This document shows positions 1,101 through 28,269 of a stretch of DNA of 32,000 nucleotides, piece by piece. Below the pieces are notes generated by a model. It worked only from the letters and a program-made list of their open reading frames with translations, had not been told where the DNA came from and made no database searches. Position 1 is the stretch's first letter, and every line of letters starts with the position of its first letter. This DNA is from Candidatus Saccharimonadota bacterium (GTDB taxonomy: Bacteria > Patescibacteriota > Gracilibacteria > Absconditabacterales > Absconditicoccaceae), in the NCBI GenBank assembly GCA_000503875.1, contig CP006913.1, positions 270,001 to 302,000 on the forward strand. Direction: 5' to 3'. The translations under genes and the position numbers were made by a program.

Positions 1101-3140
1101 CTATTTTACATCAGTAGTAATAAATTCTTTCTCTGTTGGAGAAGCCAATACTTTGACCCCTACGTGCTGTTGCCCCGCAAAAATGAGCCCTTCTCCAACT
1201 CCACAAGATACCAACCTTCTTTGCTCTGCCTCAGAGAGTCCAAGCAGATCATTGAGCGCTTTGATAGAAGTGGTAGATTGTTTAAGCAATATTTGAAGAG
1301 ACGAGTTAGAAAGAATAGGTTTTCCATACTTACTTCTTACGAAGTCTTCAATATCTTGAGAGATGGTAGTAATTCCAAGTCCATATTTTCTGGCTCTTTT
1401 GATAAGTCCAAATAAGAATTCTGCAGAAGTTTCATGTTGAAGCATAATCCAGGCTTCATCACAGATAAGTAATCTTTTCTTTTTCTGTGATCTTACTTTG
1501 GTCCAGATAAAGTTCAAAACGTTAAACATCGCAGGTGTTTTTAATACTTCTTCAAGATCTCTAATACTAAAAACGGTCATTGCATTGTTGATATCTACGT
1601 TAGTATAGTTATTGAAAAGTTTTCCAAAGGTTCCAGTAACATATTTACTAAGTTTAAGCGCTATTTTTTCTCCACCATCCATACCATCCAAAACATTCAT
1701 CAAATCTTCCATCAATGGTGGTTGTTTGCCTTCATATGACATAGCTTCCAAAGAAAATCCTTTTAAGCTATAGGTACTTTGAATTGCTTTATCCAGAAGA
1801 GCTTCTTCTTCAGTACTTAAATCTCCAATCAATAATTTCACTAATCCAATAAGTGCCATAATCTGACTTCTCAAAAGATCTCCTTTCCCGTAATCAACAT
1901 CACTAATTTGTGGAGGAATATCAAATGGATTAATAAATTGTTGTGAACTTGTAGCAATATTTACATAGGTACCACCTACTTTTTGAGCAAGCGTTTTGTA
2001 TTCATTTTCAGGATCGATAATGATAATATCAATTCCATTGAGCAAATATCTAAGTACTTCAAGTTTAACAGTAAATGATTTTCCGGCTCCAGATGTCGCT
2101 AGTACACAACTGTTCATATTTGGAAGTTTGGAATTGAATCTATCGAAAATCACTAATCATCCTGTATGTTGATTAACTCCATATAGGATTCCTGTTTCAC
2201 TAATCATATCATTGGAAATAAAGGGAAAACTTCCCGCCAATGACGAAGTAACACTACTTCTCGTAATCCCTAGATCATCGATACACAAAGGAAGTGTACT
2301 GGTAAATCCTTCATCCATTCTTTGAGTAGCATTTTTCATTCTGATTCCATATCAAGAAATTTTTTGTTCAAGTTTCTTACCTTCTTCCTTGAGTTTATCT
2401 TCACTTTCTTCGTAAACATTCATATAATATCCTGTTTCAAAATATCTTTCTTCACGAGTTGTTAACTTTTCTCTAATCATTTCTACATCCTTGTATTGTT
2501 GTTCAACTTCAGTATCCAACGTGATTCCTTTTGACATAGCATCTTTAATTTCTGCTTTAAGTTGAGTTGCTCTAGTTTTGAGCATAGATTGGATTGCGGC
2601 ATCATCTTCTGGATAAATAAACCAGCTCATATCCCATTTTGCATGAAAACTCAAAATATCTCTTGTCCATAGAGCATCTATGTATGAAGGATAACTTTGA
2701 ACATAATAACTTTTTCCCAAAAGCCCAGAAGTATTGAAATGATTTGGCTTATGTTCCCAAAATGAAGGTGCTATGTGTGATTTATAATCATTGATGACAG
2801 AAATATATTGTTTTTCTACTTCAACGATATATTGTCTAAGTTTGCTAGTAAGCTTGCTATCGCTATATTGATCATCAGGTAATTCCAAAAGATATTTGAT
2901 TTGTTCTTTGAGATCTTTGTCTTTGATCATACTATTTTCTGGTATAACAGCTCATGGAGTACCATCTTTCTTTGGGGTTGCAGCACTAGGAAAAAGTGTT
3001 CAGAACAAACTATCAAAAATTCATCAAACACCTCCAGTTTTTTTTGGAGCATCTATTTGAAGAATATAGTTTGGCTTTCCTCAATTGGGAAGCTGTTGGC
3101 TATAATTAGTATCAAAAATAACGTCTTGAATAGTATTCAT
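1101..3140 (-). CDS. VirB4/TraC-like type IV secretion or conjugation AAA ATPase (~679 aa)
   Basis: Track ORFs 1101..2153, 2157..2339 and 2352..2930 share one frame and are joined by TGA at 2157-2159 and 2352-2354. The frame continues upstream through further TGAs to ATG at 3138-3140. Walker A is 'ATSGAGKSF', followed by 'IIIIDPENEY' and the Walker B-like 'RLLICDEAW', a layout typical of VirB4/DUF87 ATPases. Stop is TAG at 1101-1103. Confidence 0.75.
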
Positions 3141-3286
3141 AGTAGTACAAAAGGATATATAAAAGTACTCCTTTTAAGTATATCCAAAAACACAAAAGAA
3201 CAAAACTGTTGAGGCTTTTCTTATAACTTTGGTTTGACTTTGTTGTGTATTTATATATAAAATAGGAAACCTAAAAAAAACAATAT

Positions 3287-7944: not shown

Positions 7945-9327
<1,383 letters not shown>

Positions 9328-9337
9328 GGGAAGTAAG

Positions 9338-9384
9338 TAATAAATTAAATATTTTTTTATAGTGATCAACTAACAATTTCTGAT
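9338..9384. repeat. 47-bp direct repeat, copy A (non-coding duplicate of the atpG 3' end plus downstream sequence)
   Basis: Identical base for base to 10738-10784: 'taataaattaaatatttttttatagtgatcaactaacaatttctgat'. Flanking bases differ on both sides. The offset is exactly 1400 bp. Confidence 0.9.
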
Positions 9385-9398
9385 TATAATTGTTCTGA

Positions 9399-10727
9399 TT
9401 AATATGTTTGCGCACCTCACCATTCAATTGCTGAGAATCATGTTCTTGTGAATGATTGTAATTTTTGTTCTGGTATAGAAATAGGTTTATCTAGTCATTT
9501 GAATACCATAAATATTCTTTGTATACTATCTGGTTTTGGTATTATTGTTAGTTGAGCTTGGTCTGTATAGTCTTTTCCAGCGAATCTAATTGCAGCATAT
9601 GGATGCTGATTCATAAGTGGTAATCGATATACAATAAATTCATTATATTCATTAGGTGTTAAACCTAAATATGTAAGTTTTTCTTTGAGAAATGATGTAT
9701 AGTTCTTTTTTTCAATAACAAATCATTCATTTATACTCCATGGTTTCATTTTTTTTGCTTCCCAAAATATATATGAATATTTATTATCATCAGCTTTATT
9801 TATTAGTTCTCCATCTGGATTTGCAATTACATTTCGTGTATTGTTTTCTCAAATTTCAGGATATGTTGTGGAAAAAATTCATTTAAGATTTATTTTTACA
9901 CTTACTGCTGTAGGTTTTGTTGGATAGAGATATATTACAGGTTTTTCACCATAACCATCAGCTGTTTCGAATGTCGATAATAATGAACTACTTATAGATT
10001 TGATTTTTCAATCAACAATTTGTTTTGTTATTCAATATGTTTCATTATGTACCATATCTCATAAATATGATGTAATAATTACTCCAAAATAGTATGTGTT
10101 ATTTCATTTGTATGTATATTTATATTTCACTTCTCATCTTTCTGTTCATATCCAATTCCAGTATCCTGAATATGTTTTTGAATATCGGTTTGCATCTCTT
10201 TTTGATCCTGTTGTTAAAGAGAGAGCATAATCATATTTTTTATCATTAACTGCTCAATAATATTCATTTATTAGATCAATATTTTTGATATGATTAATTA
10301 CTTCTTGATCACTTAATTTCATATCTTGTAGAACTTTATTCATAAGCTCTGTATTTCCAAAAACACTATTATCATTATTATAATAATGATTTTTATAATC
10401 CCATACATTATAATAATAAATAGAAATTAATCTGGCTACATTTTTACTAACTCATCAGAAAAAGTTATTATAGTCTATACATCCTGCACCATCACATTCC
10501 AAGTTGGTATCAATTGTTGGTTTTGTATCTGTTTCTGCAGGAACAGACTTACTTTCCATAGTTTCTGTTGTATTTATTCCTTCAAGGGGTATTGAAGTAA
10601 TTGCTGGTATACCTACTAATTCTGGAGAATTATTTATTGCTGTATTATCAATTATTGGTTGTTTTTCTTGTACAGAACATCCAGTTAGAACTAACAATGG
10701 TATTATAGCAAATAAAATCTTTTTCAT
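9399..10727 (-). CDS. lipoprotein of unknown function (442 aa), inserted between atpG and atpD
   Basis: Track ORF 10455..10727 gives the signal peptide plus lipobox ('MKKILFAIIPLLVLTGC'). My hand translation continues in frame through about 15 TGA codons to TAA at 9399-9401. No standard-code ORF of 60 aa or more exists there, as expected for a TGA-rich gene. Confidence 0.65.
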
Positions 10728-10737
10728 TTGAGCAGAT

Positions 10738-10784
10738 TAATAAATTAAATATTTTTTTATAGTGATCAACTAACAATTTCTGAT
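10738..10784. repeat. 47-bp direct repeat, copy B (overlaps the last 9 codons and stop of atpG)
   Basis: Identical to 9338-9384. It covers the atpG 3' end (10757-10784) and the 19 nt downstream. Confidence 0.9.
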
Positions 10785-11659
10785 ATTTCTTGGGTAATTT
10801 TTTGTTGACGAGTTTTATTATACACGGTCTGTAATCCACTTACGATTTCACCACAATTATCTTTGGCATTTTTCATAGCGAGCATTCTTGAAGCTTGTTC
10901 TGATGTCTTATTATTCAATACCGCGTAATAAACGATATGATGCACAATATCTTCAATTAATGATTTTGCATATGTTTTTGGATCTGGTTCTAGTAATAGA
11001 TTGTTATTTGGTACCAAAGCAATATTATCTAACTTTTTATCTATATTTTCCAAGAACGCATCGAAACTTTCTTGATCAAGTGGATAGAGTTTAAATCTCA
11101 AAGGCACCTGCATTACTACATTCTTGAAGTAGTTGAAATAGATTTTGATCTTGGCATAACGATTTTCTTTGATTGCTTGTTTGATATAGACGAAGACGCT
11201 ATTCAAATCATTTTCTACAAAGTTGTCTTTGATATGACAGGTTCCTACGACATTCCATCCTGCTCCCACAAAAAAATCTAATCATTTTTTTCCGATAACA
11301 AAGATATCTACGTTTTCTTTTGCTTCTTTGATAGTTCCATATTTCTCTTGAAGATGCTTAATAAGTTTGCTATTGAGTGATCCACATAATCATTTATCCG
11401 TAGTTACCAAAATAATCAATCTTCTTCCAAAACTATTCTTTGTATCTTTGTTTGTTTGGTTATTTTCATCGAAAATATCTATATGATCTTTGATGGCATA
11501 TAAAACCCCCAAAAACTGCTTCATAAACCCTCTAAAATTGAGTGTTCTCTGTTTTAGTTTTTGTAATTTAACGGTAGAAACTATCTCCAAAGCCTTAATG
11601 ATCTTTTGAAGATTATGTACTGATTTTATTTTGGTCTTGATAAGCTTCGTATTAGCCAT
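10757..11659 (-). CDS. atpG: F1 ATP synthase gamma subunit (300 aa)
   Basis: 'MANTKLIKTKIKSVHNLQKIIKALEIVSTVKL...' continues through TGA at 11390-11392 into track ORF 10766..11269. It ends '...YNKTRQQKITQEISEIVS[TGA]SL' with TAA at 10757-10759. Confidence 0.9.
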
Positions 11660-12107
11660 GTCTCATCTTTTTTAGATGTAAATCAGCGGTAATTTTTTGT
11701 AATGACAAATAGGACTTTTCGATACTATCTATATCTCCTTGGAGTTTAATTTCTTTGATATCTCTTTCTAATTGTTCTTTCATTTTTTCTAGTTCTTGTA
11801 TATCAGATATAGGATTTGCAGTTGCTCCCGAGACAAAAACAATAAGATTCTCACCATCTACATAAAGAGATCAGTTGCCTATTGATAGATGAATTTCATC
11901 CTCTTTAAACAAAAAATCCGTACCTTCTATAAAAGTATTTCCTTGTTTATCTTTTGGTAAGAAACTCAAAATTCCTGGTTTCACGATACTTCCCAAAGGA
12001 ATATGATTTGGTAATACGGTAATTACTCCAGCTTCCGTAGGGATGGTCGTTTTTATTACCTCTCAGTGGAAAATTGTTTCTTGCGGTGAAATTAAAGTTA
12101 GCTGCAT
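11652..12107 (-). CDS. atpC: F1 ATP synthase epsilon subunit (151 aa)
   Basis: Hand translation reads 'MQLTLISPQETIFH[TGA]EVIKTTIPTEAGVITVLPNHIPLGSIVKPGILSF...HLSIGN[TGA]SLYVDGENLIVFVSGA...'. This matches the epsilon beta-sandwich plus helical tail. It is absent from the track because of TGA codons. Its 3' end overlaps the atpG start by 8 nt. Confidence 0.8.
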
Positions 12108-12129
12108 GTAGTATATATAAAACTAAAAT

Positions 12130-13638
12130 CTATTTCACTTCTATTTCTTCCACAACAATTGTAATTAATTCTTTGATTCACAATTCTATTTCGTCATCTA
12201 AAGATTGCTTCTTGATAATATTCTGATTTAATTTTTTGTGGGTTGTATCTAGTTTATTATATAAGTTTTTTTCAAATTCCAATATTTTATCCAACGGCAA
12301 GGTATCCATATATCAGTTGATACCAGCATATACTAATACTACTTGCTTATTGAATGGAATAGGGGAGTTATTGCTTTGTTTAAGCATTTCTACAAGCCTC
12401 TTTCCTTTTTCGATTTTATTTTGAGTTGAAATGTCTAGGTCTGAAGCGAATTGTGCGAAACTAGCCAACTCTCTAAAGGTTGCTAATTCTAGTCTAAGTT
12501 TACCAGCAATTTTTTTCATGATTTTGGTCTGGGCAGATCATCCTACACGAGAAACAGAGAGTCCTACATTGATTGCAGGTCTGATTCATGAGTTGAAAAG
12601 ATCAGTTTCTAAGAATATTTGTCCGTCTGTGATAGAAATTACATTGGTTGGAATATATGCGGAAACGTCAGAATCCAAAGTTTCAATAATAGGGAGAGCG
12701 GTCAAACTTCCTCCACCATGTTCATCGCTAAGTCTTGCAGCTCTTTCCAAAAGTTTGGAATGCAAGTAAAATACATCACCAGGATAGGCTTCTCTTCCAG
12801 GAGGTCTTCTCAAAAGGAGGGAAACTTCTCTATAAGCAACGGCATGTTTCGTCAAATCATCATAGATGATCAACGCATCTTTTCCATGTTCCATAAAATA
12901 TTCTCCTAAAGCACATCCTACGTAGGGAGCAATATATTGCAATACGGATGGTGCATTAGCCGGAGCATTAACAACGATGGTGTAATCCATAGCTCATTTC
13001 TCTTTGAGCATTTCTACGATTCTTCTTACTTTACTATCTTTTTGCCCAATCGCAACATAGATACAGATCACATCTTTTCCTTTTTGGTGGATGATAGTAT
13101 CCGTTGCAATAGTGGTTTTACCTGTTTGTCTATTTCAGATAATCAATTCTCTCTGTCCTCTTCCAATTGGCACCATGGTATCAATTGCTTTAATACCAGT
13201 TTCCAAAGGTGTATTTACTGATTTTCTAGCAATAACTCCAGGAGCAATTTTTTCAACGGGAGAAAATGCTGTTGGCGTGATTTTACCTTCATCATCTATA
13301 GGATTACCCAAGGCATCCAAGACTCTACCCAAATATTCTTCTCCTACTCAGACGTCCAAGACTTTTCCCATAGCTTTTACTACACTTCCTTGTCAGAGAC
13401 CTTCTTGGCTTCCCAATACGAGAATTCCGACAGTATCTGGAGAAAGATCGAGCACAAGCCCCTTAACTCCATTTTCAAATTCTACAATTTCAGAAAACAT
13501 CGCATTGTCCAAACCAATCACGGTTGCGACACCATCTTTCAATTCTAGGATTTCTCCTTTTTTGGAAAACTGTTGTTTGAGGTCTTTACCATCCAAGTCT
13601 TTTTCAATTTTTTTGAGAATATCCGATACGAGATCCAT
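12130..13638 (-). CDS. atpA: F1 ATP synthase alpha subunit (502 aa)
   Basis: Track ORFs 13393..13638, 13135..13332, 12586..12990 and 12313..12519 share one frame and are joined by TGA. It contains 'GRGQRELII[TGA]NRQTGKT' and '[28 protein letters not shown]'. Stop is TAG at 12130-12132. Confidence 0.95.
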
Positions 13639-13674: not shown

Positions 13675-14133
13675 TTATTTCAATAAAATATCTAAATCTG
13701 AATCTAAATTTCTTTTGTATTGATAACCATTTCCTTTGATTGTTATCCCTAAGTGGAAACACTCATCATTTTGCAAACTATATGCTTTAAATTCTTTTTT
13801 GAGCACAGCATCTACTTTACTATGAATATCTTTTTGAGCAGAGAGAGGAGCTTGTACGGTAAATTGTATTTCTTTTTCTTGCTTTTGGAGTTCTTTGATC
13901 AAGATGTTCAAATGTTTTTTACTCCAAAACCCATATTTCCCCAAAAATGCAATAAAATCTCGCAATCCCTGATCATTAGTTTTGATACTATTTTTGTAGT
14001 CCGAAAGAAATATATTTCTATTATATTTTTTTACCAAGATATTCGCTATTTTTACATATTCAACAAAATGAGCGTCCTTTTGAAGACTTGGCAAATATTC
14101 TTGTATAAATGTTTTAAATGAGAGATTTGACAT
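13675..14133 (-). CDS. atpH: ATP synthase delta (OSCP) subunit, short form (152 aa)
   Basis: Intact ORF positioned between atpF and atpA. The C-terminal 'GITIKGNGYQYKRNLDSDLDILL' resembles the delta C-terminal motif. Confidence 0.65.
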   Translation of the reverse strand: MSNLSFKTFIQEYLPSLQKDAHFVEYVKIANILVKKYNRNIFLSDYKNSIKTNDQGLRDFIAFLGKYGFWSKKHLNILIKELQKQEKEIQFTVQAPLSAQKDIHSKVDAVLKKEFKAYSLQNDECFHLGITIKGNGYQYKRNLDSDLDILLK

Positions 14134-14141
14134 GAGGGATA

Positions 14142-14633
14142 TTATTTTTTTAAATCACTAATCAATGTATCCAGGTATTTATCTTGCAACTTTTCATCGC
14201 TTCACAAAATCTTTTTAACAAGCATTTTACTAGTTCTTTTTAAAGAATCAGTCCAATTATTGGTTAGTGATTCTTCAAGCTTTTTAGCTTCTTTCTCTGC
14301 TTGTAAAAGAATAGCTTTTGCTTTTTGTTCTCATTCTTTTAAAATAGTTTTACTATGTTCTTTGGCAAGAGTTTCTCCTTCATAAAGAATAGATTCAGAG
14401 TGTTTTTTTGCATGAGAGATGATATCTTCAGCTTCTATTTTTGCTTTATCCAAAATCTCTAGGTATTCAACATCAGCATTTTTTAATTTTTTTACCAAAT
14501 TTCTTCTTTCTTCGATGGAAGTAGATATAGTATCTCATAAAAATCTTTTAAAGATCCAAAAAAGCAATAGAAAATTGAAAATCTGAGCGATTACGGTAAA
14601 CAAATCTAATCCTATTGATTCTAGAAATGACAT
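14142..14633 (-). CDS. atpF: Fo ATP synthase b subunit (163 aa)
   Basis: Hand translation reads 'MSFLESIGLDLFTVIAQIFNFLLLFWIFKRFL[TGA]DTIS...', followed by a long charged helix. This is an N-terminal TM segment plus coiled-coil stalk. Position in the operon supports the call. Confidence 0.75.
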
Positions 14634-14660: not shown

Positions 14661-15104
14661 TTATCAAAGTATCTTAAAAGCAACGATAAGTGCATAAATA
14701 GCTGATGATTCAACTAAGGCAACAAACAATACCATAAATGTCATTATTTTATTCTTTGCTTCAGGATTTCTTTGTAGGGCATCAATAGCGGCAGCAACAA
14801 CCCATCATTCTCATAATGATACAGGAAGTCCAGCAATACCCATTACAAGTCCTGCAGAAAGAGCACTTGCTACACTGATAGCAGATCCTAGATCAATAAT
14901 TTTGAACGCAATAATCAATCCATAGATGGCTGCAGATTCAACTAAGGCAATACCCAAAACAGTAAATACCATAAGTGATCAACTAAGTTCTGGATTTTTT
15001 CCAAGAGCTTCAACTGATTTTTTGGATACAACTGCGTGTCCTAAAGAAACTCAGATAGCACATAGTCATAGTGCAATAGCTGCTCATAATACATGTAGTT
15101 CCAT
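14661..15104 (-). CDS. atpE: Fo ATP synthase c subunit, tandem-duplicated (two hairpins fused, 147 aa)
   Basis: Single frame translated by hand. The first half is '...AIALGLCAIGVSLGHAVVSKKSVEALGKNPE...GIALVESAAIYGLIIAFKII'. The second half is '...SAGLVMGIAGLPVSLGEGWVVAAAIDALQRNPE...FVALVESSAIYALIVAFKIL'. Several glycines of the Gly-rich helix 1 are TGA-encoded. Stop is TAA at 14661-14663. Confidence 0.85.
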
Positions 15105-15131: not shown

Positions 15132-15944
15132 TTACTCTTGTACTATCTTAACAAAGATAGCGGTAAGAAGGGATATTACAAATGCTTGAACGACAGCAAC
15201 CAATAGTCATTGAACGAGAAGAATTATTGGCAGAAGGAATGGGAAATCTACTTTTGCTATAAGTTGTGATAATCAATTTGTACCAGCCACTAACATTCAC
15301 AAAAGAATAGTTCATGCTAACATATTTCCCCATAATCTATGTGAGAGAGAAATAAGCTTTGCTAGATTTCCAATAATATCCAATATTCAAATAAACAATG
15401 ATATGATTATGTCGAAAAGTTTTACAACAACCTTCATAGGATAGTAAACAAACGGATTCATAGTTCATTTTTCTACGTCAATAATTTTTTTACCCGTTAT
15501 AGGAATATATTCATGAACAAAATGAATGAATCAATGTTTCTTTGCTTGCATAAAAAGTACAAATACAACAGAGAATATTGCTAATGCAACGTCAAAGTTT
15601 TTATCACTAGTAGGTATTGTTATATAATGTTCTAGTGTAGGTCGAGCTAATGCAAATGAATCAACAAACAATCCCATGAAATTTGAAATGAATACAACAA
15701 AAAACAAACTGACTATGGTTGATTTTACTCGTTTCTTTTCATGTTCTCATAAAATTTCTTCAAAAACTTTATATATTTCTTCATAGAGAAGTTCAAAAAT
15801 AATACTGATTTTACTTTTTTTCTTAAAATGAAATAATGCGATAAAAATACCTATAATAAAAATTTCTGCCAGTACTCAAATGTAGCTTGACCTTATAATA
15901 AAATCAAATCAGAAGATATGTAACGTAGGTAATATATGTTCCAT
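15132..15944 (-). CDS. atpB: Fo ATP synthase a subunit (270 aa)
   Basis: Starts 'MEHILPTLHIF...' and contains 'SLSHRLWGNMLA[TGA]TILL...' with the conserved stator Arg motif. It ends '...LLVAVVQAFVISLLTAIFVKIVQE'. It is the first gene of the operon. Stop is TAA at 15132-15134. Confidence 0.85.
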
Positions 15945-17663: not shown

Positions 17664-17691
17664 TTGACATTTAATAGATAATATTTATAAT
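17664..17691 (+). promoter_or_regulatory. sigma-70-like promoter (TTGACA, 16-nt spacer, TATAAT)
   Basis: TTGACA at 17664-17669 and TATAAT at 17686-17691, 32 nt upstream of the ATG at 17724. Confidence 0.5.
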
Positions 17692-17723
17692 TACAAAAAT
17701 TATTTATATTATTGATTTTTTGT

Positions 17724-19808
17724 ATGCAAAAAATTTTGCTTCAGAATTCTTATTTCAATATTTTGGAAATGCTTGATCAACAGCCATGATCAGAGCAAAT
17801 GCTCAATGCATTAATCCAATTAGAATCAGATATTAAAGCTGGAATTTTTGATATATTACAAAATTACCAAAAGCAAAACAAAGAAATGGAAAATACAAAA
17901 ACATACCAAGCAATACATGGAACAGTACTTGCATTAAGAAATACGTTGGAAGCTAGAATTATGCAAATAGCAACTGGCGATAAAGTAAGTATTCATGATT
18001 TATTGAATCAATGTATTATCAATCTCAATAAAATATTGGAAAATCAAGAAAATATTGAAGATATATTAAAAAATATGAAAATTTATTTTAGAAAAGTAGA
18101 AGAAACTATTCTTCCGCCAGATGAACAACAAGTTCAGACAGGTTCTTGAAATTGATGATTTGAAAAGAAAGAATGATGTAATAAATTTGGTTCATTAATA
18201 ACATTGCTTAGAAAAAATGAAATATATACAGATGATTTGTTTGTGATTACTTGAGTAAATCAATTAAATCAAATGAGAGAAGAAACATATCTTTATATTC
18301 ACATCCCAAGAATAAATAAAACAATTCTGATTAATAATGGTTATGGAGAAAAAACATTCATTTATGATGGCTATATAGAAGTAGAATATTTTTTGAATAC
18401 TACAAAAAAATGAATCAAACAAAATGAAAATATTGTTAGCGTGAATTTTGACTATGAAGACAGTGCAAATTGGGAAACTAAGATGAGATATTATTTGTTT
18501 GAAAAAGGAAAAGAAAATAAAGATGGATGATCGGTTTGAAAAAAAGTAAATATAAAAGATTTTTTAAGAGTGCCAGAATGATGGTATACGAATAAATCAT
18601 TGGCTACTAATTTGAGCGTTGCACCAAATACAATAAAAAATATAGTTAAACTATATAGAGAAACAAATCCAGAATATTTAAAAAAATATTTAGATAATCA
18701 CAGTAATCTACGAGAATATTATGCGCCAGAATTGTGTAAAATTATAGAAGAAGAAATAAAAAATAGGTGAGAAGAATCTCCAGAATGATGGTTTACAAAT
18801 AATGCTTTAGCTGAAAAATTGGAAAAAAACAAAGATGCTATAAAAAAAATAGCAAAAAAATATATCGTAACAAATCCTGAACGATTCAAGGAATATATAA
18901 ATAAATTATGAAGAATAAGAGAATATTATCATCCAGAATTGTGTAAAATTATAGAAGAAGAAATAGAAAATAGATGAGAAAAAGCTCCAGAGTGATGGAA
19001 AAACAATAATAAATTAGCTAGTGATTTATGAGTAGATTTTGATAGTGTGAAAAAAATAGCTGAAAGTTATAGATGAAATAGTCTAGATTGGTTTGTATAT
19101 TACTTAGATAATATAAACAACTTACGCGAATACTATGCACCAGAGTTATGTAAGATTGTAGAAGAAGAAATAGAAATAAAAAATAGATGAGAAAAAGCTC
19201 CAGAGTGATGGAAAAACAATAATAAATTAAGATTAGAATTGACGGAATCTTTTTATGTAGTAAAAGATATTGCAAATAAATATAGAGAAACAAATCTATT
19301 GTGGTTTAAACAATATCTAGATAATCATAATAATTTACGAGAATATTATCATCCAGAGTTATGTGAGATAATAAGAAAGGAAGCGAAGAATAGAGGAGAA
19401 AAGTCACCAAAGTGATGGGAAACAAATAAATGATTAGCCGACAAAATAGGAACATCAGAACAATCTATAAAATTGGTAATAGAAAAATATAGAGAAAAAA
19501 ACACAGAACGATTTAAAGAATATTTAGATAAAAATAATAGATTACGAGAACATTATCATCCAGAATTATGTAAAATAGTAAAAAAAGAAATAGAAAATAG
19601 ATGAGAAAAATCACCAAAATGACGAAACACAAATAAATGATTAGCAAAAGAAATTGGTGTAGATCCCCTTACTATAAAAGGACGTACCGAGAAATATAGA
19701 GAAACAAATCCAGAACGATTTAAGGACTATTTAGATAAGATGAATAGAAAGACAATTCATTATAGTCCAGAATTCTGTGAAATAATTAAAAAAGAACTCC
19801 AAAAATAA
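17724..19808 (+). CDS. large lineage-specific protein (694 aa): ~280-aa N-terminal region plus six tandem ~70-aa repeats
   Basis: Track ORF 17799..18149 is only a fragment. Hand translation from ATG 17724 runs through more than 30 in-frame TGA codons to TAA at 19806-19808. The repeat consensus is 'PEGW.TN..LA..L......IK.I..KYRETNPEWFK.YLD..NNLREYY.PELC.II..EI.NRGEK'. Confidence 0.7.
18570..19808 (+). repeat. six in-frame tandem coding repeats, period about 210-216 nt
   Basis: Example: 'aatagatgagaaaaagctccagagtgatggaaaaacaataataaatta' recurs near 18969 and 19182. The motif 'ccagaattgtgtaaaattatagaagaagaaata' also recurs. Confidence 0.8.
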
Positions 19809-22443: not shown

Positions 22444-23112
22444 CAAAAAAAGACCCTAGAATAAATTCTAAGGCCCTTGGACTTTATATAGAGCAAGGAC
22501 ATATGTTGATAAACTAATGAAATACAATACAAGGAATAAAATACCCAAAGGTAAAATACATCAAGTAAAATATAACAAAGCAAGAAGGCACAAGTCCTAT
22601 GTTGATCTGACGCTATTTTTACTATAATGCAAAGCTGGTTTTATCCAACACTACATTTTACAAAGCAGACAGTTTAATCTTTAATCTTTTGTCTGATATC
22701 TCTTTTGCAAGAAATACAATATTTGTAAGAGAACAGAAATTCTCAAAAGCCTGAATAAACAGAAATATCGCTATACAGATATACGCTATGTCCAGATTCA
22801 AACCAACATCTTATTGCTAAGACATCAATCAAAATAAGAAGATAGATATACGCCATACATGATATAAAAACAGATGCAGGTCAATTTGTTCTATAATAAA
22901 GATCCTCACCATCAGATAATAAGGTTTTAACGCCCTTCATCTTTTGATGACAATATAAGTATATAGGAAAATGTTTGTTTTGTCAAATTTTTAATAACTT
23001 TTTTTAGATACAAGTAAATACGGGTATTAATCTATAAATCAAAGTGTTTACTTGATTTTTTTTAATGAATATATAATCTTATTTTCATATTTTTATTTTT
23101 TTGAAAGAGAAT

Positions 23113-24312
23113 ATGATATTTGCAATAATTCTGCTTATTTTAGGATTGCTTTTGCTTGGTTTTTGAGCTAATTATCTGATTACTTCTAGTGTGAGAATCG
23201 CAAAACATTTTCATGTTTCTAGTTTGCTTATTGGATTAACTATTATAGCGATAGGAACTTCGGCACCAGAATTATTTCTTTCTGGATTGGCTGCAATTCA
23301 ATGAAATTGAGCACTTTCAGTAGGAAATGTAATAGGATCAAATATATTTAATCTGGGGTTTATTCTTGGTCTTAGTGCTATTATTATGCCAATATTCATC
23401 AAGAAAAAAATTATCTATAGAGATGGTTTGGTTTTACTTATTATTACTGCAGCTGTTCTTGCAATGCTATGGGATCAACACGTTGCTCGGCGAGAAGGAG
23501 CAATTTTACTTGCAGGATTAGTCTGATATAATGGATATCTTCGAATCAAAAAAGATGCACCAACAGATGAAGAAGTTGAAATATCAAAACCAAAACTCAA
23601 AAATTTAGCATATGTTGCACTTGGATTAGTAGCTCTTGCATCTGTTCATGCAACAACTATCGATGGTAATTTTACTGTATCATTTGGTATGTCCTTATAT
23701 TCTGGAATATTTCTGGGGATATTAGGATTATCATTTCTCGTAGCAATTTTCAAAAAAGATATTCCAGAATTTCATGATATTGGAAATGGAACTTTGATGA
23801 ATATTATTAAGTTGATAGCAAGTCTTGGTATATTAGTGTTGGCTTCAGAATTAGTAGTGAGTGCTGCTGTATATATTGCACAGACTTTTTGAATTTCAGA
23901 ACGAGCAATAGGTGCAACGATAGTTGCTGCAGGAACCAGTTTGCCAGAAGTAGCTGCAACAGTAGCAGCTATTCTCAAGAAAAATTATGATATGGGAGTA
24001 GGAAATGTCATAGGGTCAGATATTTTCAATATTTTATGAATTATAGGAATAAGTTCAGTTATAGCACCATTAAATCTTACTTCAAAATGTGTTGTTTTGA
24101 CTCAGTGTGATACATGATTTTGGCAGTTGTTATTTAGAGATAATATATTTTCTGTATTGATTTTATTTTTAACTTTGGGAATAACATTTCTTTTTATGAG
24201 AACAGGTTGGAAATTATCAAAAAGAGAATGAATTATATTATTTGTTTTTGCATTACTCAGAATGATTTTTGAAATTAATCCTAATTTTTTTACTAAATGG
24301 TTTGGTGGCTAA
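23113..24312 (+). CDS. CaCA-family cation/Ca2+ exchanger (YrbG-like, 399 aa)
   Basis: Two alpha-repeats are present: 'LLIGLTIIAIGTSAPEL...GNVIGSNIFN' and 'AIGATIVAAGTSLPEV...GNVIGSDIFN'. It reads through several TGA codons; track ORF 23689..23892 is an internal fragment. Confidence 0.8.
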
Positions 24313-26455: not shown

Positions 26456-26497
26456 ACTCTTCCTTGCTATTTTACTCCGAAATCGTAGCATAAACAA

Positions 26498-26520
26498 ACG
26501 CAATTGTTGCGTATATTTTA
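26498..26520 (+). terminator. weak terminator-like hairpin
   Basis: 'acgcaa' (26498-26503) pairs with 'ttgcgt' (26507-26512), followed by an A/T-rich tail. Confidence 0.35.
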
Positions 26521-26538
26521 TTAGTTACAATTACATGA

Positions 26539-28269
26539 ATGTTATTTAGTGAATGTTGATTAAAACCAGGTTTGTTAAAATCTTTGGCTGCTATGGGATA
26601 TACCCAAGCTACACCAATCCAAGAGAAAGTAATGAAAATAGCGCTCACATGAGCAAATATTGTATGACAATCTCAAACAGGAACAGGAAAAACTGCGGCC
26701 TTTTTGCTTCCTATTCTCAATAAAATAGATACCAATAGAAAATCAGTGCAAGTATTAATTCTTGCTCCAACTAGAGAATTAGTAGTCCAAATTTGAGAAG
26801 AAATCAGAAATCTGACAAAATTTTACGGAGTGAGTTTTGCTTGTCTTTACGGAGGAGCAAGTCCTAACGTTCAAAAAGAAAAACTCAGAAGAAGCCCTGC
26901 AATTGTTATTGCAACTCCAGGAAGATTAATGGATTTTATGAATCAAAAAGTGATAGATGTGAGAACGGTTGATTATTTTATTCTCGACGAAGTTGATAGA
27001 ATGTTGGATATGGGATTTGTCCGCGATATCAAAAAAATTCGAGCTCAACTTCCATCAGTAAAGCAGACACTTACTTTTTCTGCTACTATGAACAATGATA
27101 TGAAGACTATTATCAAAGATCATATTTCTACCTACGAATTTATCAAAATAGGAGAGGAAGTGACGGTTGATAAAATTCATCACAGATATATTCCCATCGA
27201 ACACGAGCAAAAGCTTTTCAACGTGATTAAACTTATCGAAGCTCATCCAGATGATAGAATTATTATTTTTACGCATACCAAAAGAAATACAAAAACTATT
27301 CATCAAATTTTAATCTGAGATGGTTTCAACGCAGGATTGTTAAATGGGGATATGGCTCAAGGAAAAAGACAGTCAACCCTCAACGATTTTAAAATAAACA
27401 AAACACAAATACTGGTTACAACAGATGTTGCTGCCAGAGGACTAAATATGGAAAATGTAGGATTGGTTATCAACTTCGATGTGCCTGCTGATGCTAAGAG
27501 TTATATTCATAGAATTGGAAGAACAGGAAGAGCAGGAGCAGAAGGAAAAGCTATTATGTTAGTTTCTCCGCTTGAAAGACCTTTACTTCAAGATATAGAA
27601 AAAGTTCACAAAATCAGAATACAACAATCCGAACATATTGCACAAATAGATAGACAAGGATGATATGGAAATCTTCGTCTTGATAGATCAACTGACAAAA
27701 AAGGTGGGAAGAAAATGATGCCCAGAAAGCGCCTAAGTCCTACCCAAAAATATGGAAAGCTTCCCACATTCGAAGATCAAAAACCTATAAAAACAGAAAA
27801 TAATTTTCGCAGCAATCCAAACCATAAAAAACACGAACGTAGTTTATGAGCTCCCAACAGAGGAGTAGATTGATATAAATGATCAAAACCGGATAGCAGA
27901 CCAGAAGGAAGATCATTTGGAGCGAGACCAGATAACAGAGGACCACGCCCAGATAGCAGATGACCACGCCCAGAAGGGAAATCATATGGAGCGAGACCAG
28001 ACAGCAGACCATCAACAGGATGATATAAATGATCAAAACCAGATAGCAGATGACCAAGACCAGAAGGGAAATCATACGGAGCAAGACCAGATAGTAGACC
28101 ATCAACAGGATGATATAAATGATCAAAACCGGATAGCAGAGGACCACGCCCAGAAGGGAAATCATATGGAGCAAGACCAGATAGCAGAGGACCAAGATCA
28201 GAAGAAAAATCATACGGGGCAAAGCCACAGTGATCATTTAGAGGTGCAGGAAAACCAAGACACAGATAA
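26539..28269 (+). CDS. DEAD-box ATP-dependent RNA helicase with a repetitive basic Gly/Arg/Pro-rich C-terminal tail (576 aa)
   Basis: Contains 'GYTQATPIQ', motif I '[TGA][12 protein letters not shown]', 'PTRELVVQI', motif II '[11 protein letters not shown]', 'SAT' and motif VI '[10 protein letters not shown]'. Track ORFs 26830..27318 and 27337..27663 are fragments. The frame continues through the repeat region to TAA at 28267-28269. Confidence 0.9.
27868..28200 (+). repeat. in-frame tandem repeats encoding '[30 protein letters not shown]'-type units
   Basis: 'tgatataaatgatcaaaacc(g/a)gatagcaga' occurs at 27870, 28021 and 28111. 'ccagaagggaaatcata(t/c)gga' recurs three times. Confidence 0.85.

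What the first reader, a model, noticed from the sequence alone, without database searches (positions are those of the whole stretch)
14661..15104. Fused double-hairpin c subunit (147 aa, four predicted TM helices) with the carboxylate retained in both halves
F-type c subunits are normally single hairpins of about 70-90 aa. This single ORF encodes two consecutive hairpins.
- Each has the loop motif: 'ALGKNPE' and 'ALQRNPE'.
- Each has the ion-binding helix: 'ALVESAAIYGLIIAFKI' and 'ALVESSAIYALIVAFKI'.

Both Glu residues are kept. This differs from known duplicated V/A-type proteolipids and the Acetobacterium c1 subunit, which lost one site. A covalent c2 unit constrains ring stoichiometry to an even number of hairpins, and so affects the ion/ATP ratio.
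Basis: partly seen in the sequence, partly recalled or inferred. Interest (0 to 1): 0.65.

Follow-up and report, generated by a model that had tools for sequence, protein, structure and literature searches.

The report
Fused two-hairpin ATP synthase c subunit
The rotor subunit of this bacterium's ATP synthase really is two hairpins fused into one protein, both keeping the ion-binding glutamate; this is the normal state of its whole lineage (bacteria that read TGA as glycine), and relatives carry 4 to 13 hairpins in one chain.

Summary
The ORF at 14661..15104 is on the minus strand and has seven in-frame TGA codons, so it is intact only where TGA means glycine (genetic code 25). TGA codons in the F1 beta gene align with glycine, which supports code 25.

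- **Architecture:** the 147-aa protein has two ATP-synt_C hairpins, about 48% identical to each other, both with the glutamate. It lies between subunits a and b of an F-type operon, which holds no other c gene.
- **Not an artefact:** more than 100 database clusters share the architecture. One homolog recurs on at least 24 independent contigs. The junction between the halves contains no TGA or stop codon.
- **Conservation:** both glutamates are invariant in 113 of 113 homologs.
- **Relatives:** other code-25 bacteria encode 4, 5, 6, 7, 8, 9, 10, 12 or 13 hairpins in one chain, all with glutamate. Candidatus Vampirococcus lugosii has 10.
- **Closest solved structure:** Acetobacterium woodii c1, which has glutamine where this protein has the second glutamate.
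- **Overstated claim:** Sulfate-reducing Desulfobacterota carry 160-aa double-hairpin c subunits with both glutamates, next to a single-hairpin c gene.

Ring size, coupling ion and direction of operation were not tested. The paper search failed throughout, so I could not check whether this is published.

The parts
14661..15104 (-). atpE-like gene for a fused double-hairpin c subunit (c2): 147 aa under code 25, followed by TAA at 14661-14663
   Evidence: translation, seven TGA codons; Pfam ATP-synt_C matched twice, E = 7e-26; TIGR01260 and NF005363 above their cut-offs, two stretches each
14895..15104 (-). Hairpin A (residues 1-70): helix 1 with the Gly-rich motif (three of its Gly encoded by TGA), loop GKNPE, helix 2 with Glu56
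   Evidence: scores 103 with the A-type profile, 70 with the B-type; the homolog model has helices 2-36 and 38-70
14865..14894 (-). Ten-residue linker (residues 71-80, DLGSAISVAS) joining helix 2 to helix 3; contains no TGA, stop or start codon
   Evidence: the standard-code ORF 14811..14972 spans it; non-helical stretch 71-80 in the homolog model
14664..14864 (-). Hairpin B (residues 81-147): helix 3 with GEG (Glu99), loop QRNPE, helix 4 with Glu132; the C-terminal Gly147 is encoded by TGA
   Evidence: scores 106 with the B-type profile, 68 with the A-type; aligns with F. nucleatum c so that E32/E65/S66/T67/Y70 correspond to E99/E132/S133/S134/Y137
14937..14939 (-). Codon for Glu56, the ion-binding carboxylate of hairpin A
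   Evidence: Glu at this position in 113 of 113 c2 homologs
14709..14711 (-). Codon for Glu132, the ion-binding carboxylate of hairpin B; A. woodii c1 has Gln here
   Evidence: Glu at this position in 113 of 113 c2 homologs
15036..15038 (-). Codon for His23 in helix 1 of hairpin A. This is the position of Q32 in I. tartaricus c and E32 in F. nucleatum c. No other of the 113 homologs has His here.
   Evidence: A hairpins: E 99, Q 13, I 1; window: H
15132..15944 (-). Fo subunit a (270 aa), directly upstream; the stator Arg is present (LSHRLWGN)
   Evidence: (PF00119, E = 4.5e-30)
14142..14633 (-). Fo subunit b (163 aa), directly downstream
   Evidence: PF00430, E = 1e-5, below Pfam's cut-off; matches b in related loci
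13675..14133 (-). 152-aa ORF in the position of subunit delta; it matches no delta family in Pfam
   Evidence: assigned by position only
12130..13638 (-). F1 alpha
   Evidence: RELIIGNRQTGKT with Gly from TGA; 57-65% identity to alpha in related loci
11652..12107 (-). F1 epsilon, unusually placed between alpha and gamma
   Evidence: PF02823, E = 1.1e-11
10757..11659 (-). F1 gamma
   Evidence: 31-33% identity to gamma in related loci
7945..9327 (-). F1 beta, separated from gamma by a 442-aa lipoprotein gene at 9399-10727
   Evidence: E = 7e-189 to F. nucleatum beta, PDB 6q45

Best explanation
The gene encodes the c subunit of the F1Fo ATP synthase of a bacterium that reads TGA as glycine (genetic code 25: Gracilibacteria/Absconditabacteria, formerly SR1). 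It is the only c gene in the operon.

The protein is an old fusion of two diverged hairpins, type A followed by type B. That gives four transmembrane helices and a ten-residue linker on the side of the membrane opposite the two polar loops. Each hairpin keeps the full F-type signature:
- a Gly-rich inner helix;
- a polar loop, G-K-N-P-E in hairpin A and Q-R-N-P-E in hairpin B;
- an outer helix with Glu-Ser-x-x-x-Tyr.

Inferred mechanism: n copies assemble into a rotor ring of 2n hairpins in which A and B alternate. Every hairpin's Glu carries one coupling ion past the Arg of subunit a. The number of ions per turn is therefore 2n, an even number, and ions per ATP is 2n/3. No site is lost, so the fusion does not lower the gear ratio as V-type proteolipids do.

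Each site in an F-type ring is built from two neighbouring hairpins (own knowledge of F-type ring structures). The ring should therefore hold two alternating, chemically different kinds of site. In this organism one kind includes His23 and the other Glu99.

Relatives encode 10, 12 or 13 hairpins in a single chain, so a ring of 10 or 12 hairpins (5 or 6 copies) is the most likely size.

Shown here: the genetic code, the gene structure, the conservation and the operon context. Inferred: ring assembly from this protein alone, ring size, coupling ion and direction of operation. ATP-driven pumping is likely, because the lineage is reported to lack a respiratory chain.
For: - **Genetic code 25:** five of six TGA codons in beta align with Gly. 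TGA positions in the c gene align with Gly in homologs. Long ORFs appear across the window only when TGA is sense.
- **Two F-type hairpins:** Pfam ATP-synt_C matches twice. NCBIfam single-hairpin F-type models match twice and score above V-type K models.
- **Age of the duplication:** the halves are 48% identical in protein and 55% in DNA. In 992 hairpins from 225 proteins, the nearest neighbour in another protein is of the same A or B type in 987 cases.
- **Clade-wide and independent of any one assembly:** 211 hits, mostly 146-151 aa, named ATP synthase F0 subunit C of Candidatus Absconditabacterales or Gracilibacteria. One homolog lies on at least 24 contigs from JGI, Logan, ENA and NCBI in the same gene context. 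Another cluster has a member on 375 contigs.
- **Both sites under selection:** Glu 113/113 and Tyr 113/113 in each hairpin.
- **Fold:** AlphaFold2 model of a 57%-identical homolog, pLDDT 95.7, four helices. The best PDB match is A. woodii c1, TM-score 0.87.
- **Operon:** a, c2, b, a delta-position ORF, alpha, epsilon, gamma, beta, with the stator Arg in a. No second c-like motif occurs in the 32 kb.
- **Ring-size hint:** single-chain forms with 10, 12 and 13 hairpins, all with Glu, in relatives.
- **Physiology:** Absconditabacteria have an F1Fo enzyme but no electron transport chain (PMC8080830).
Against: - No experimental or multimer-model evidence for ring composition or size was obtainable here.
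- Only 32 kb of the genome was seen, so an unlinked single-hairpin c gene cannot be excluded. In Desulfobacterota a similar double-hairpin gene sits beside a single-hairpin c gene.
- His23 replaces the Glu or Gln found in every other homolog, so one of the two kinds of site may be altered or weakened in this organism.
- The position matching Thr67 of Na+-binding c subunits is Ala in hairpin A and Ser in hairpin B. The Vampirococcus authors judged the motif closer to H+ types. The coupling ion is therefore open.
Confidence: 0.85

Rival explanations
1. Artefact: two tandem single-hairpin c genes were merged by an assembly or frame error, or the ORF is a pseudogene broken by stop codons.
For: Under the standard code the ORF has six internal TGA codons and the longest piece is 53 aa.
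Against: All of these codons are TGA, and TGA is Gly in this genome. The junction (residues 45-97) is a continuous ORF even under the standard code. The same 146-151 aa architecture occurs in more than 100 clusters and in many independent assemblies. The halves are only 55% identical in DNA, so repeat collapse or expansion during assembly is unlikely.
Confidence: 0.02
2. Mixed ring: the double-hairpin protein is one component of a hetero-oligomeric ring that also contains a single-hairpin c encoded elsewhere. This is the arrangement in A. woodii (c1 with c2/c3) and, judging by gene order, in Desulfobacterota. The even-number constraint would then not apply.
For: In a Desulfobacterota genome the 160-aa double-hairpin gene follows an 82-aa c gene in the same Fo operon. 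Only 32 kb of this genome was seen.
Against: The window operon holds a single c gene between a and b, and there is no other c-like motif in the 32 kb. The related c2 locus L015 and the multi-hairpin loci also show one c gene between a and b.
Confidence: 0.1
3. Functional halving: both Glu are present, yet only one of the two kinds of site transports ions in this organism, because His23 disturbs the site it belongs to. The ring would then behave like a V-type rotor with half the ions per turn, which favours pumping.
For: His23 is unique among 113 homologs at a position that contributes to the ion site in I. tartaricus and F. nucleatum c. The lineage probably uses the enzyme as an ATPase.
Against: Glu56, Ser57 and Tyr61 are intact. 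The clade keeps Glu in every hairpin, including proteins with 10-13 hairpins, which argues that all sites are used. His can also act as a ligand or hydrogen-bond partner.
Confidence: 0.08

Closest known systems
Acetobacterium woodii F-type c1 subunit (PDB 4bem chain J)
   Same: A four-helix double hairpin of F-type sequence encoded in an F-type operon. It is the best PDB match by sequence (E = 1.4e-13 over both hairpins) and by fold (TM-score 0.87, 36% identity, for the homolog model).
   Different: c1 has Gln in hairpin 2 where this protein has Glu132, so c1 has one site per four helices. From my own knowledge, c1 is a single copy in a ring otherwise made of single-hairpin c2/c3. Here the double hairpin is the only c gene in the operon.
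160-aa double-hairpin F0 c subunits of Desulfobacterota (for example Desulforhabdus sp. P0210, and P0452 on CP070689.1)
   Same: F-type double hairpins with Glu in both halves and a GEG ... ES..IY motif. They are annotated 'ATP synthase F0 subunit C' and account for 45 of the top 120 clusters.
   Different: They use the standard code. They carry the full ESTGIY motif. They sit next to an 82-aa single-hairpin c gene in the same operon, which suggests a mixed ring. They were found only as weaker hits in the profile search (P0210, E about 1e-22). Whether their duplication is independent of the one studied here was not tested.
Multi-hairpin c subunits of other code-25 bacteria (Gracilibacteria; Candidatus Vampirococcus lugosii, 750 aa)
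   Same: The same alternating A and B hairpin types, Glu in every hairpin, and the same position between a and b.
   Different: They have 4, 5, 6, 7, 8, 9, 10, 12 or 13 hairpins in one chain instead of 2. Those with 10-13 hairpins may form a whole ring from one polypeptide. The window alpha subunit is closer to that of a c2-bearing relative (65% identity) than to those of multi-hairpin relatives (57-60%).
V-type and A-type proteolipids with four helices (Enterococcus hirae NtpK, PDB 2bl2; eukaryotic V-ATPase c)
   Same: A four-helix double-hairpin fold (TM-score about 0.8).
   Different: By sequence the window protein matches NtpK only weakly (2bl2 E = 7.8e-7), and the homolog model shares 24-29% identity with these proteolipids. 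V-type NCBIfam models score far below their cut-offs. From my own knowledge these proteolipids have one carboxylate per four helices. The operon here is F-type (alpha, beta, gamma, epsilon).
Archaeal multi-hairpin c subunits (Methanopyrus, about 1020 aa; Promethearchaeota, 1139 aa with 15 hairpins)
   Same: Hairpin multiplication with the carboxylate kept in nearly all hairpins. They turned up in the same searches.
   Different: They have the A-type sequence signature (PETQAIYG or AEALGIYG). They are about 30% identical to the bacterial 10-hairpin c subunit of L004 used as the query, and they are archaeal proteins.
Engineered E. coli c-c and c-c-c fusions (Jones and Fillingame 1998; recalled from memory, not checked here)
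   Same: Covalently linked F-type hairpins that all keep the carboxylate and are reported to work.
   Different: They are artificial, made of identical hairpins joined by a designed linker. Here the fusion is natural and old, and its two halves have diverged.

Membership tests
F-type ATP synthase subunit c (Pfam PF00137, TIGR01260) | Helical hairpin with a conserved carboxylate in the middle of the C-terminal helix | tested here: met
   Glu56 and Glu132, one in each hairpin; Pfam matches twice; TIGR01260 scores 64.7 bits against a cut-off of 43.95
F-type ATP synthase subunit c (Pfam PF00137, TIGR01260) | Gly-rich N-terminal helix and a polar loop of the R/K-Q/N-P type | tested here: met
   LGAAIALGLCAIGVSLG and GKNPE in hairpin A; SAGLVMGIAGLPVSLGEG and QRNPE in hairpin B. 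Several of the Gly are encoded by TGA.
F-type ATP synthase subunit c (Pfam PF00137, TIGR01260) | Encoded between subunits a and b of an operon with F1 alpha, beta, gamma and epsilon | tested here: met
F-type ATP synthase subunit c (Pfam PF00137, TIGR01260) | A single hairpin of about 70-90 aa | tested here: not met
   147 aa with two hairpins
V-type/A-type four-helix proteolipid (NtpK / subunit K / V-ATPase c) | Only one carboxylate per four helices | tested here: not met
   Both Glu are present and invariant in 113 of 113 homologs
V-type/A-type four-helix proteolipid (NtpK / subunit K / V-ATPase c) | V/A-type sequence signature and V/A-type operon | tested here: not met
   V-type K models score 21-48 bits against cut-offs of 101-211; the operon is F-type
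A. woodii c1-type F/V hybrid subunit | Double hairpin of F-type sequence in an F-type operon | tested here: met
A. woodii c1-type F/V hybrid subunit | Second hairpin lacks the carboxylate (Gln) | tested here: not met
   The alignment to 4bem_J places Glu132 opposite the Gln of c1
A. woodii c1-type F/V hybrid subunit | Encoded together with single-hairpin c genes in the same operon | tested here: not met
   One c gene between a and b, and no other c-like motif in the 32 kb; the rest of the genome was not seen
A-B hairpin c subunits of code-25 bacteria (c2 to c13 series, defined here) | Alternating A-type and B-type hairpins, each with Glu-(Ser/Val)-x-x-Ile-Tyr | tested here: met
   The window types as A then B (scores 103/70 and 68/106). 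Nearest neighbours share the type in 987 of 992 hairpins.
A-B hairpin c subunits of code-25 bacteria (c2 to c13 series, defined here) | Glu or Gln in helix 1 at the position of E32 in F. nucleatum c | tested here: inconclusive
   Hairpin B has Glu99, but hairpin A has His23, which no other of the 113 homologs has
Homo-oligomeric ring with an even number of hairpins | The ring contains only this protein, so the hairpin count is 2n | not testable with these tools
   Needs a multimer model, a ring structure or mass spectrometry

The most novel reading that the evidence does not exclude
The window's two-hairpin protein is the basic A-B module of a clade-wide series in code-25 bacteria. In that series the rotor's hairpin number is written into a single gene, with 2, 4, 5, 6, 7, 8, 9, 10, 12 or 13 hairpins and a carboxylate in every one. 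The 10-, 12- and 13-hairpin proteins would be single-chain F-type rotor rings, a bacterial counterpart of the Methanopyrus rotor. If so, c-ring stoichiometry, and with it the ion/ATP ratio, could be read from sequence. It would be seen to vary between close relatives that lack respiratory chains. The alternating A and B hairpins would give two kinds of ion site in one ring.
Probability: 0.45. Interest if true: 0.8.

Novelty: new variant of a known kind. Interest (0 to 1): 0.6.

Why it matters
The number of c hairpins sets how many ions an ATP synthase moves per ATP. It is normally fixed by how identical small subunits pack, and it cannot be read from a gene.

Here a whole bacterial lineage encodes its rotor in covalent blocks with every ion site kept. 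The blocks range from two hairpins in this window to thirteen in relatives. That offers natural test cases for three questions:
- how ring size is determined;
- whether alternating non-identical sites work;
- what gear ratio suits tiny, non-respiring, host-dependent bacteria that probably run the enzyme backwards.

There is also a practical point. These genes look like broken pseudogenes unless TGA is read as glycine. In databases they are often mistranslated with tryptophan or labelled hypothetical, as the Vampirococcus 750-aa protein is.

Tried and rejected
- **Literature search failed.** Every paper search failed. So did paper reading for the A. woodii ring paper, the F. nucleatum two-carboxylate paper, the Pyrococcus c-subunit paper, the Absconditicoccus paper and the Vampirococcus supplement. 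Only the main text of PMC8080830 could be read. I could not establish whether the architecture is already published. I used a profile of 15 database c2 sequences for that search, headed by the Trp-mistranslated database copy of the window protein (P0001). I used a 57%-identical homolog for the structure prediction.\n- **Code 4 (TGA = Trp) rejected.** TGA aligns with conserved Gly in beta and in the Gly-rich helix of c.\n- **Single-chain ring not confirmed.** The AlphaFold2 model of the 10-hairpin relative (pLDDT 69.7, pTM 0.76, 20 helices) could not be checked for ring closure, because coordinates are not exposed. Foldseek gave no significant whole-chain match.\n- **V-type assignment rejected** on sequence scores and operon type.\n- **Recent tandem duplication or assembly repeat rejected**, because the halves are only 55% identical in DNA.

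Full report
**1. What is in the sequence**

The feature lies on the minus strand. Read from 15104 down to 14661 there are 148 codons. They start with ATG, include seven TGA codons (codons 7, 13, 18, 42, 98, 100 and 147) and end in TAA. Under the standard bacterial code the ORF is cut into pieces, and the longest listed is 53 aa at 14811..14972.

One point in its favour is that the standard-code ORF 14811..14972 covers residues 45-97. That stretch runs from helix 2 of the first hairpin, through the linker, into helix 3 of the second. The fusion junction therefore does not depend on any recoding.

**2. Genetic code**

The whole window yields long ORFs only when TGA is a sense codon. In the F1 beta gene, five of the six TGA codons align with Gly of Fusobacterium nucleatum beta (PDB 6q45), including the two in FRFTQA-G-SEVSALL-G-R. 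In alpha, TGA falls where the conserved motifs RELIIGDRQTGKT and VSRVGG have Gly (the motifs are from my own knowledge).

In the c gene itself, the TGA positions align with Gly in homologs that were translated with Gly at these positions. The database copy of this protein, P0001, carries Trp at exactly those seven positions, so it was translated with code 4. The organism therefore uses code 25. The named homologs are from Candidatus Absconditabacterales and Candidatus Gracilibacteria.

**3. Is it a real double hairpin?**

- Pfam ATP-synt_C matches twice (E = 7e-26).
- NCBIfam single-hairpin F-type models each match in two stretches. TIGR01260 and NF005363 are above their cut-offs, while V-type K models are far below theirs.
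- The halves align with a score of 155, against 31 +/- 6 for shuffled sequence. They are 48% identical in protein and 55% in DNA. This is an old duplication, not an assembly repeat.
- An AlphaFold2 model of a 57%-identical homolog has pLDDT 95.7 and four helices: 2-36, 38-70, 81-113 and 115-147.
- The best PDB match of that model is the Acetobacterium woodii c1 subunit (4bem_J, TM-score 0.87), followed by V-type proteolipids.

**4. Context**

The gene sits in an F-type operon on the minus strand, in this order:

| Gene | Coordinates |
|---|---|
| subunit a | 15132-15944 |
| c2 | 14661-15104 |
| subunit b | 14142-14633 |
| ORF in the delta position | 13675-14133 |
| alpha | 12130-13638 |
| epsilon | 11652-12107 |
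| gamma | 10757-11659 |
| 442-aa lipoprotein gene | 9399-10727 |
| beta | 7945-9327 |

Subunit a keeps the stator Arg (LSHRLWGN). No other c-like motif occurs in the 32 kb.

**5. Is the fusion an error? Orthologs**

A search of 5.8 billion proteins returned 211 hits, almost all 146-151 aa with two hairpins. One homolog, P0042, lies on at least 24 contigs from JGI, Logan, ENA and NCBI assemblies, always as a-c2-b-delta-alpha. Another cluster has a member on 375 contigs of up to 977 kb.

Across 113 double-hairpin homologs, the Glu and the Tyr five residues after it are invariant in both hairpins. The Ser after Glu is present in 88-96%. The helix-1 position that corresponds to E32 of F. nucleatum c is Glu (about 87%) or Gln (about 13%).

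**6. The wider pattern**

The genome-collection scan and the two further protein searches showed that other code-25 bacteria encode their c subunit as much longer single ORFs. All of these sit between a and b.

A census of the clusters found gives the following:

| Hairpins per chain | Clusters |
|---|---|
| 2 | 118 |
| 4 | 3 |
| 5 | 1 |
| 6 | 67 |
| 7 | 12 |
| 8 | 1 |
| 9 | 1 |
| 10 | 2 |
| 12 | 10 |
| 13 | 8 |

Glu is present in every hairpin. The 10-hairpin form occurs in a 971-kb Gracilibacteria contig (L004, 751 aa). It also occurs in Candidatus Vampirococcus lugosii (P0282, 750 aa), where NCBI labels it 'hypothetical protein'.

Profiles built from the first and second hairpins of the two-hairpin proteins classify the window as A then B. 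They classify the long forms as strictly alternating ABAB..., and odd-numbered forms carry one extra A. In 992 hairpins, the nearest neighbour in a different protein has the same type in 987 cases. The A/B split is therefore older than the divergence of the two-hairpin and many-hairpin forms. Within L004, internal A-B units are 86-93% identical in DNA, which indicates later expansion by A-B units. Six two-hairpin clusters have the order B-A.

The window's alpha subunit is 65% identical to that of a two-hairpin relative and 57-60% identical to those of many-hairpin relatives.

**7. Ion site**

The alignments to solved c subunits give these equivalences:

| F. nucleatum c | E32 | E65 | S66 | T67 | Y70 |
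|---|---|---|---|---|---|
| Hairpin B | E99 | E132 | S133 | S134 | Y137 |
| Hairpin A | H23 | E56 | S57 | A58 | Y61 |

The clade as a whole has a two-carboxylate motif (E...ES.xIY), with Ala most often at the Thr67 position. His23 is unique to this window among the 113 homologs.

In F-type rings each site is formed by two neighbouring hairpins (own knowledge of the I. tartaricus and F. nucleatum structures). An alternating A-B ring should therefore have two kinds of site.

Moreira et al. compared the Vampirococcus c subunit with Na+ types and judged it closer to H+ types. They also report that the lineage has an F1Fo enzyme but no electron transport chain, and they discuss reverse operation. 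Their main text says nothing about hairpin number (PMC8080830). The coupling ion remains open. A Na+/Ca2+ exchanger gene lies 8 kb away, but this is only a hint.

**8. Comparison with what is known**

- **A. woodii c1.** This is the closest solved relative, but it has Gln where this protein has Glu132.
- **V-type proteolipids.** They share the fold only.
The statement that known duplicated proteolipids lost one site holds for those two, but it is too broad.
- **Desulfobacterota.** They carry a well-populated family of 160-aa F0 c subunits with Glu in both hairpins (45 of the top 120 clusters; Desulforhabdus sp. and many assembled genomes). They also carry three-hairpin forms that have partly lost Glu, for example in Desulfonema magnum and Desulfacinum hydrothermale. 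In one complete genome the 160-aa gene follows an 82-aa c gene in the same Fo operon, so a mixed ring is likely there.
- **Archaea.** Many-hairpin forms from Methanopyrus and Promethearchaeota appeared in the same searches.
- **What sets the code-25 clade apart.** The fused protein is the only c gene in the operon, its two halves are old and different, and the hairpin number per gene varies widely with no loss of sites.

**9. Mechanism and confidence**

I am confident (about 0.85) that this is a genuine, functional, fused two-hairpin c subunit. I am also confident that it is the main, and probably the only, building block of the rotor ring.

It follows by inference that the ring has an even number of hairpins. 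The fusion itself does not alter the ions-per-ATP ratio, because no site is lost. A ring of 10 or 12 hairpins is the best guess, based on the single-chain relatives. Ring size, ion and direction of operation were not tested.

The AlphaFold2 model of the 10-hairpin relative has 20 helices and pTM 0.76. I could not inspect it for ring closure, and Foldseek gave no significant whole-chain match.

**10. Novelty and limits**

The protein family is present in public databases, usually named F0 subunit C, sometimes 'hypothetical', and often mistranslated with Trp. I could not find out whether the architecture has been described, because the literature tools failed throughout.

I rate it a new variant of a known kind: hairpin-multiplied rotary-ATPase c subunits. 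The window's gene alone is of moderate interest. The clade-wide series from 2 to 13 hairpins is more interesting.

Noticed in passing
window 1-32000: The whole window is translated with TGA as glycine (genetic code 25). Under the standard code nearly every gene is fragmented. The database copy of the c subunit (P0001) carries Trp at the seven TGA positions, so it was translated with code 4.
   Followed up: yes
L004 5929-8196; L011 1219-3030; L002, L003, L009, L010, L012; L001, L006; proteins P0121, P0269-P0288, P0282: Relatives with code 25 encode the F-type c subunit as one ORF of 4, 5, 6, 7, 8, 9, 10, 12 or 13 hairpins, alternating A and B types, with Glu in every hairpin. The Candidatus Vampirococcus lugosii protein (750 aa, 10 hairpins) is labelled 'hypothetical protein' at NCBI. 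These may be single-chain rotor rings.
   Followed up: partly
window 7945-13638: The F1 gene order is unusual. Epsilon (11652-12107) lies between alpha and gamma and overlaps the start of gamma by 8 bases. A 442-aa predicted lipoprotein with no other family match (9399-10727) lies between gamma and beta. In the related locus L015 the operon stops after alpha and is followed by ndk.
   Followed up: partly
window 15036-15038 (His23 of the c subunit): His occupies the helix-1 position that is Glu (99) or Gln (13) in the A hairpin of 113 homologs. No other homolog has His there. It may change the ion affinity of every second site in the ring.
   Followed up: partly
proteins P0090, P0107, P0117, P0118: Six two-hairpin clusters have the hairpins in the order B-A, and their first hairpin reads LDES (Asp-Glu). 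One such cluster has a member on 375 contigs. This could be a different cut of an ABAB array or a circular permutation.
   Followed up: no
L018 7735-8483 (CP070689.1); proteins P0210, P0452, P0473, P0424, P0426: Desulfobacterota carry 160-aa double-hairpin F0 c subunits with Glu in both halves and a full GEG...ESTGIY motif, next to an 82-aa c gene. They also carry forms of about 242 aa with three hairpins and patterns such as E-Q-E or E-Q-Q, including in the cultured Desulfonema magnum and Desulfacinum hydrothermale.
   Followed up: partly
proteins P0136, P0137, P0152 and many others of about 316-320 aa: A large set of F-type-like proteins with four or five hairpins, from unnamed sources, keeps Glu only in the first hairpin and has Gln in the others. 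That would mean one ion site per eight to ten helices.
   Followed up: no
proteins P0139, P0369 (Promethearchaeota), P0366, P0374 (Methanopyrus): Archaeal A-type c subunits of 1018-1146 aa were found. P0139, the one whose hairpins were counted, has 15. Some come from Asgard archaea, not only from Methanopyrus.
   Followed up: no
window 17691-19808 (+): A protein of about 700 aa whose C-terminal half holds about seven tandem repeats of roughly 55 aa (…YRETNPE.FK.YLD….LREYY.PELC.II..E…NRGEK.P.GW). The only family hit is a weak helix-turn-helix match (E = 8.7e-6).
   Followed up: partly
window 23077-24312 (+): A Na+/Ca2+ exchanger family protein (Pfam Na_Ca_ex, E = 5.6e-57) lies 8 kb from the atp operon. 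It may bear on whether the cell keeps a sodium gradient.
   Followed up: partly
window about 27800-28269 (+): The DEAD-box helicase (26494-28269) ends in a low-complexity tail of repeated [29 protein letters not shown] units.
   Followed up: no
window 1101-3173 (-): A VirB4/TraG-like P-loop ATPase (Pfam P-loop_TraG, E = 5.6e-27), possibly part of a conjugation or secretion system.
   Followed up: no
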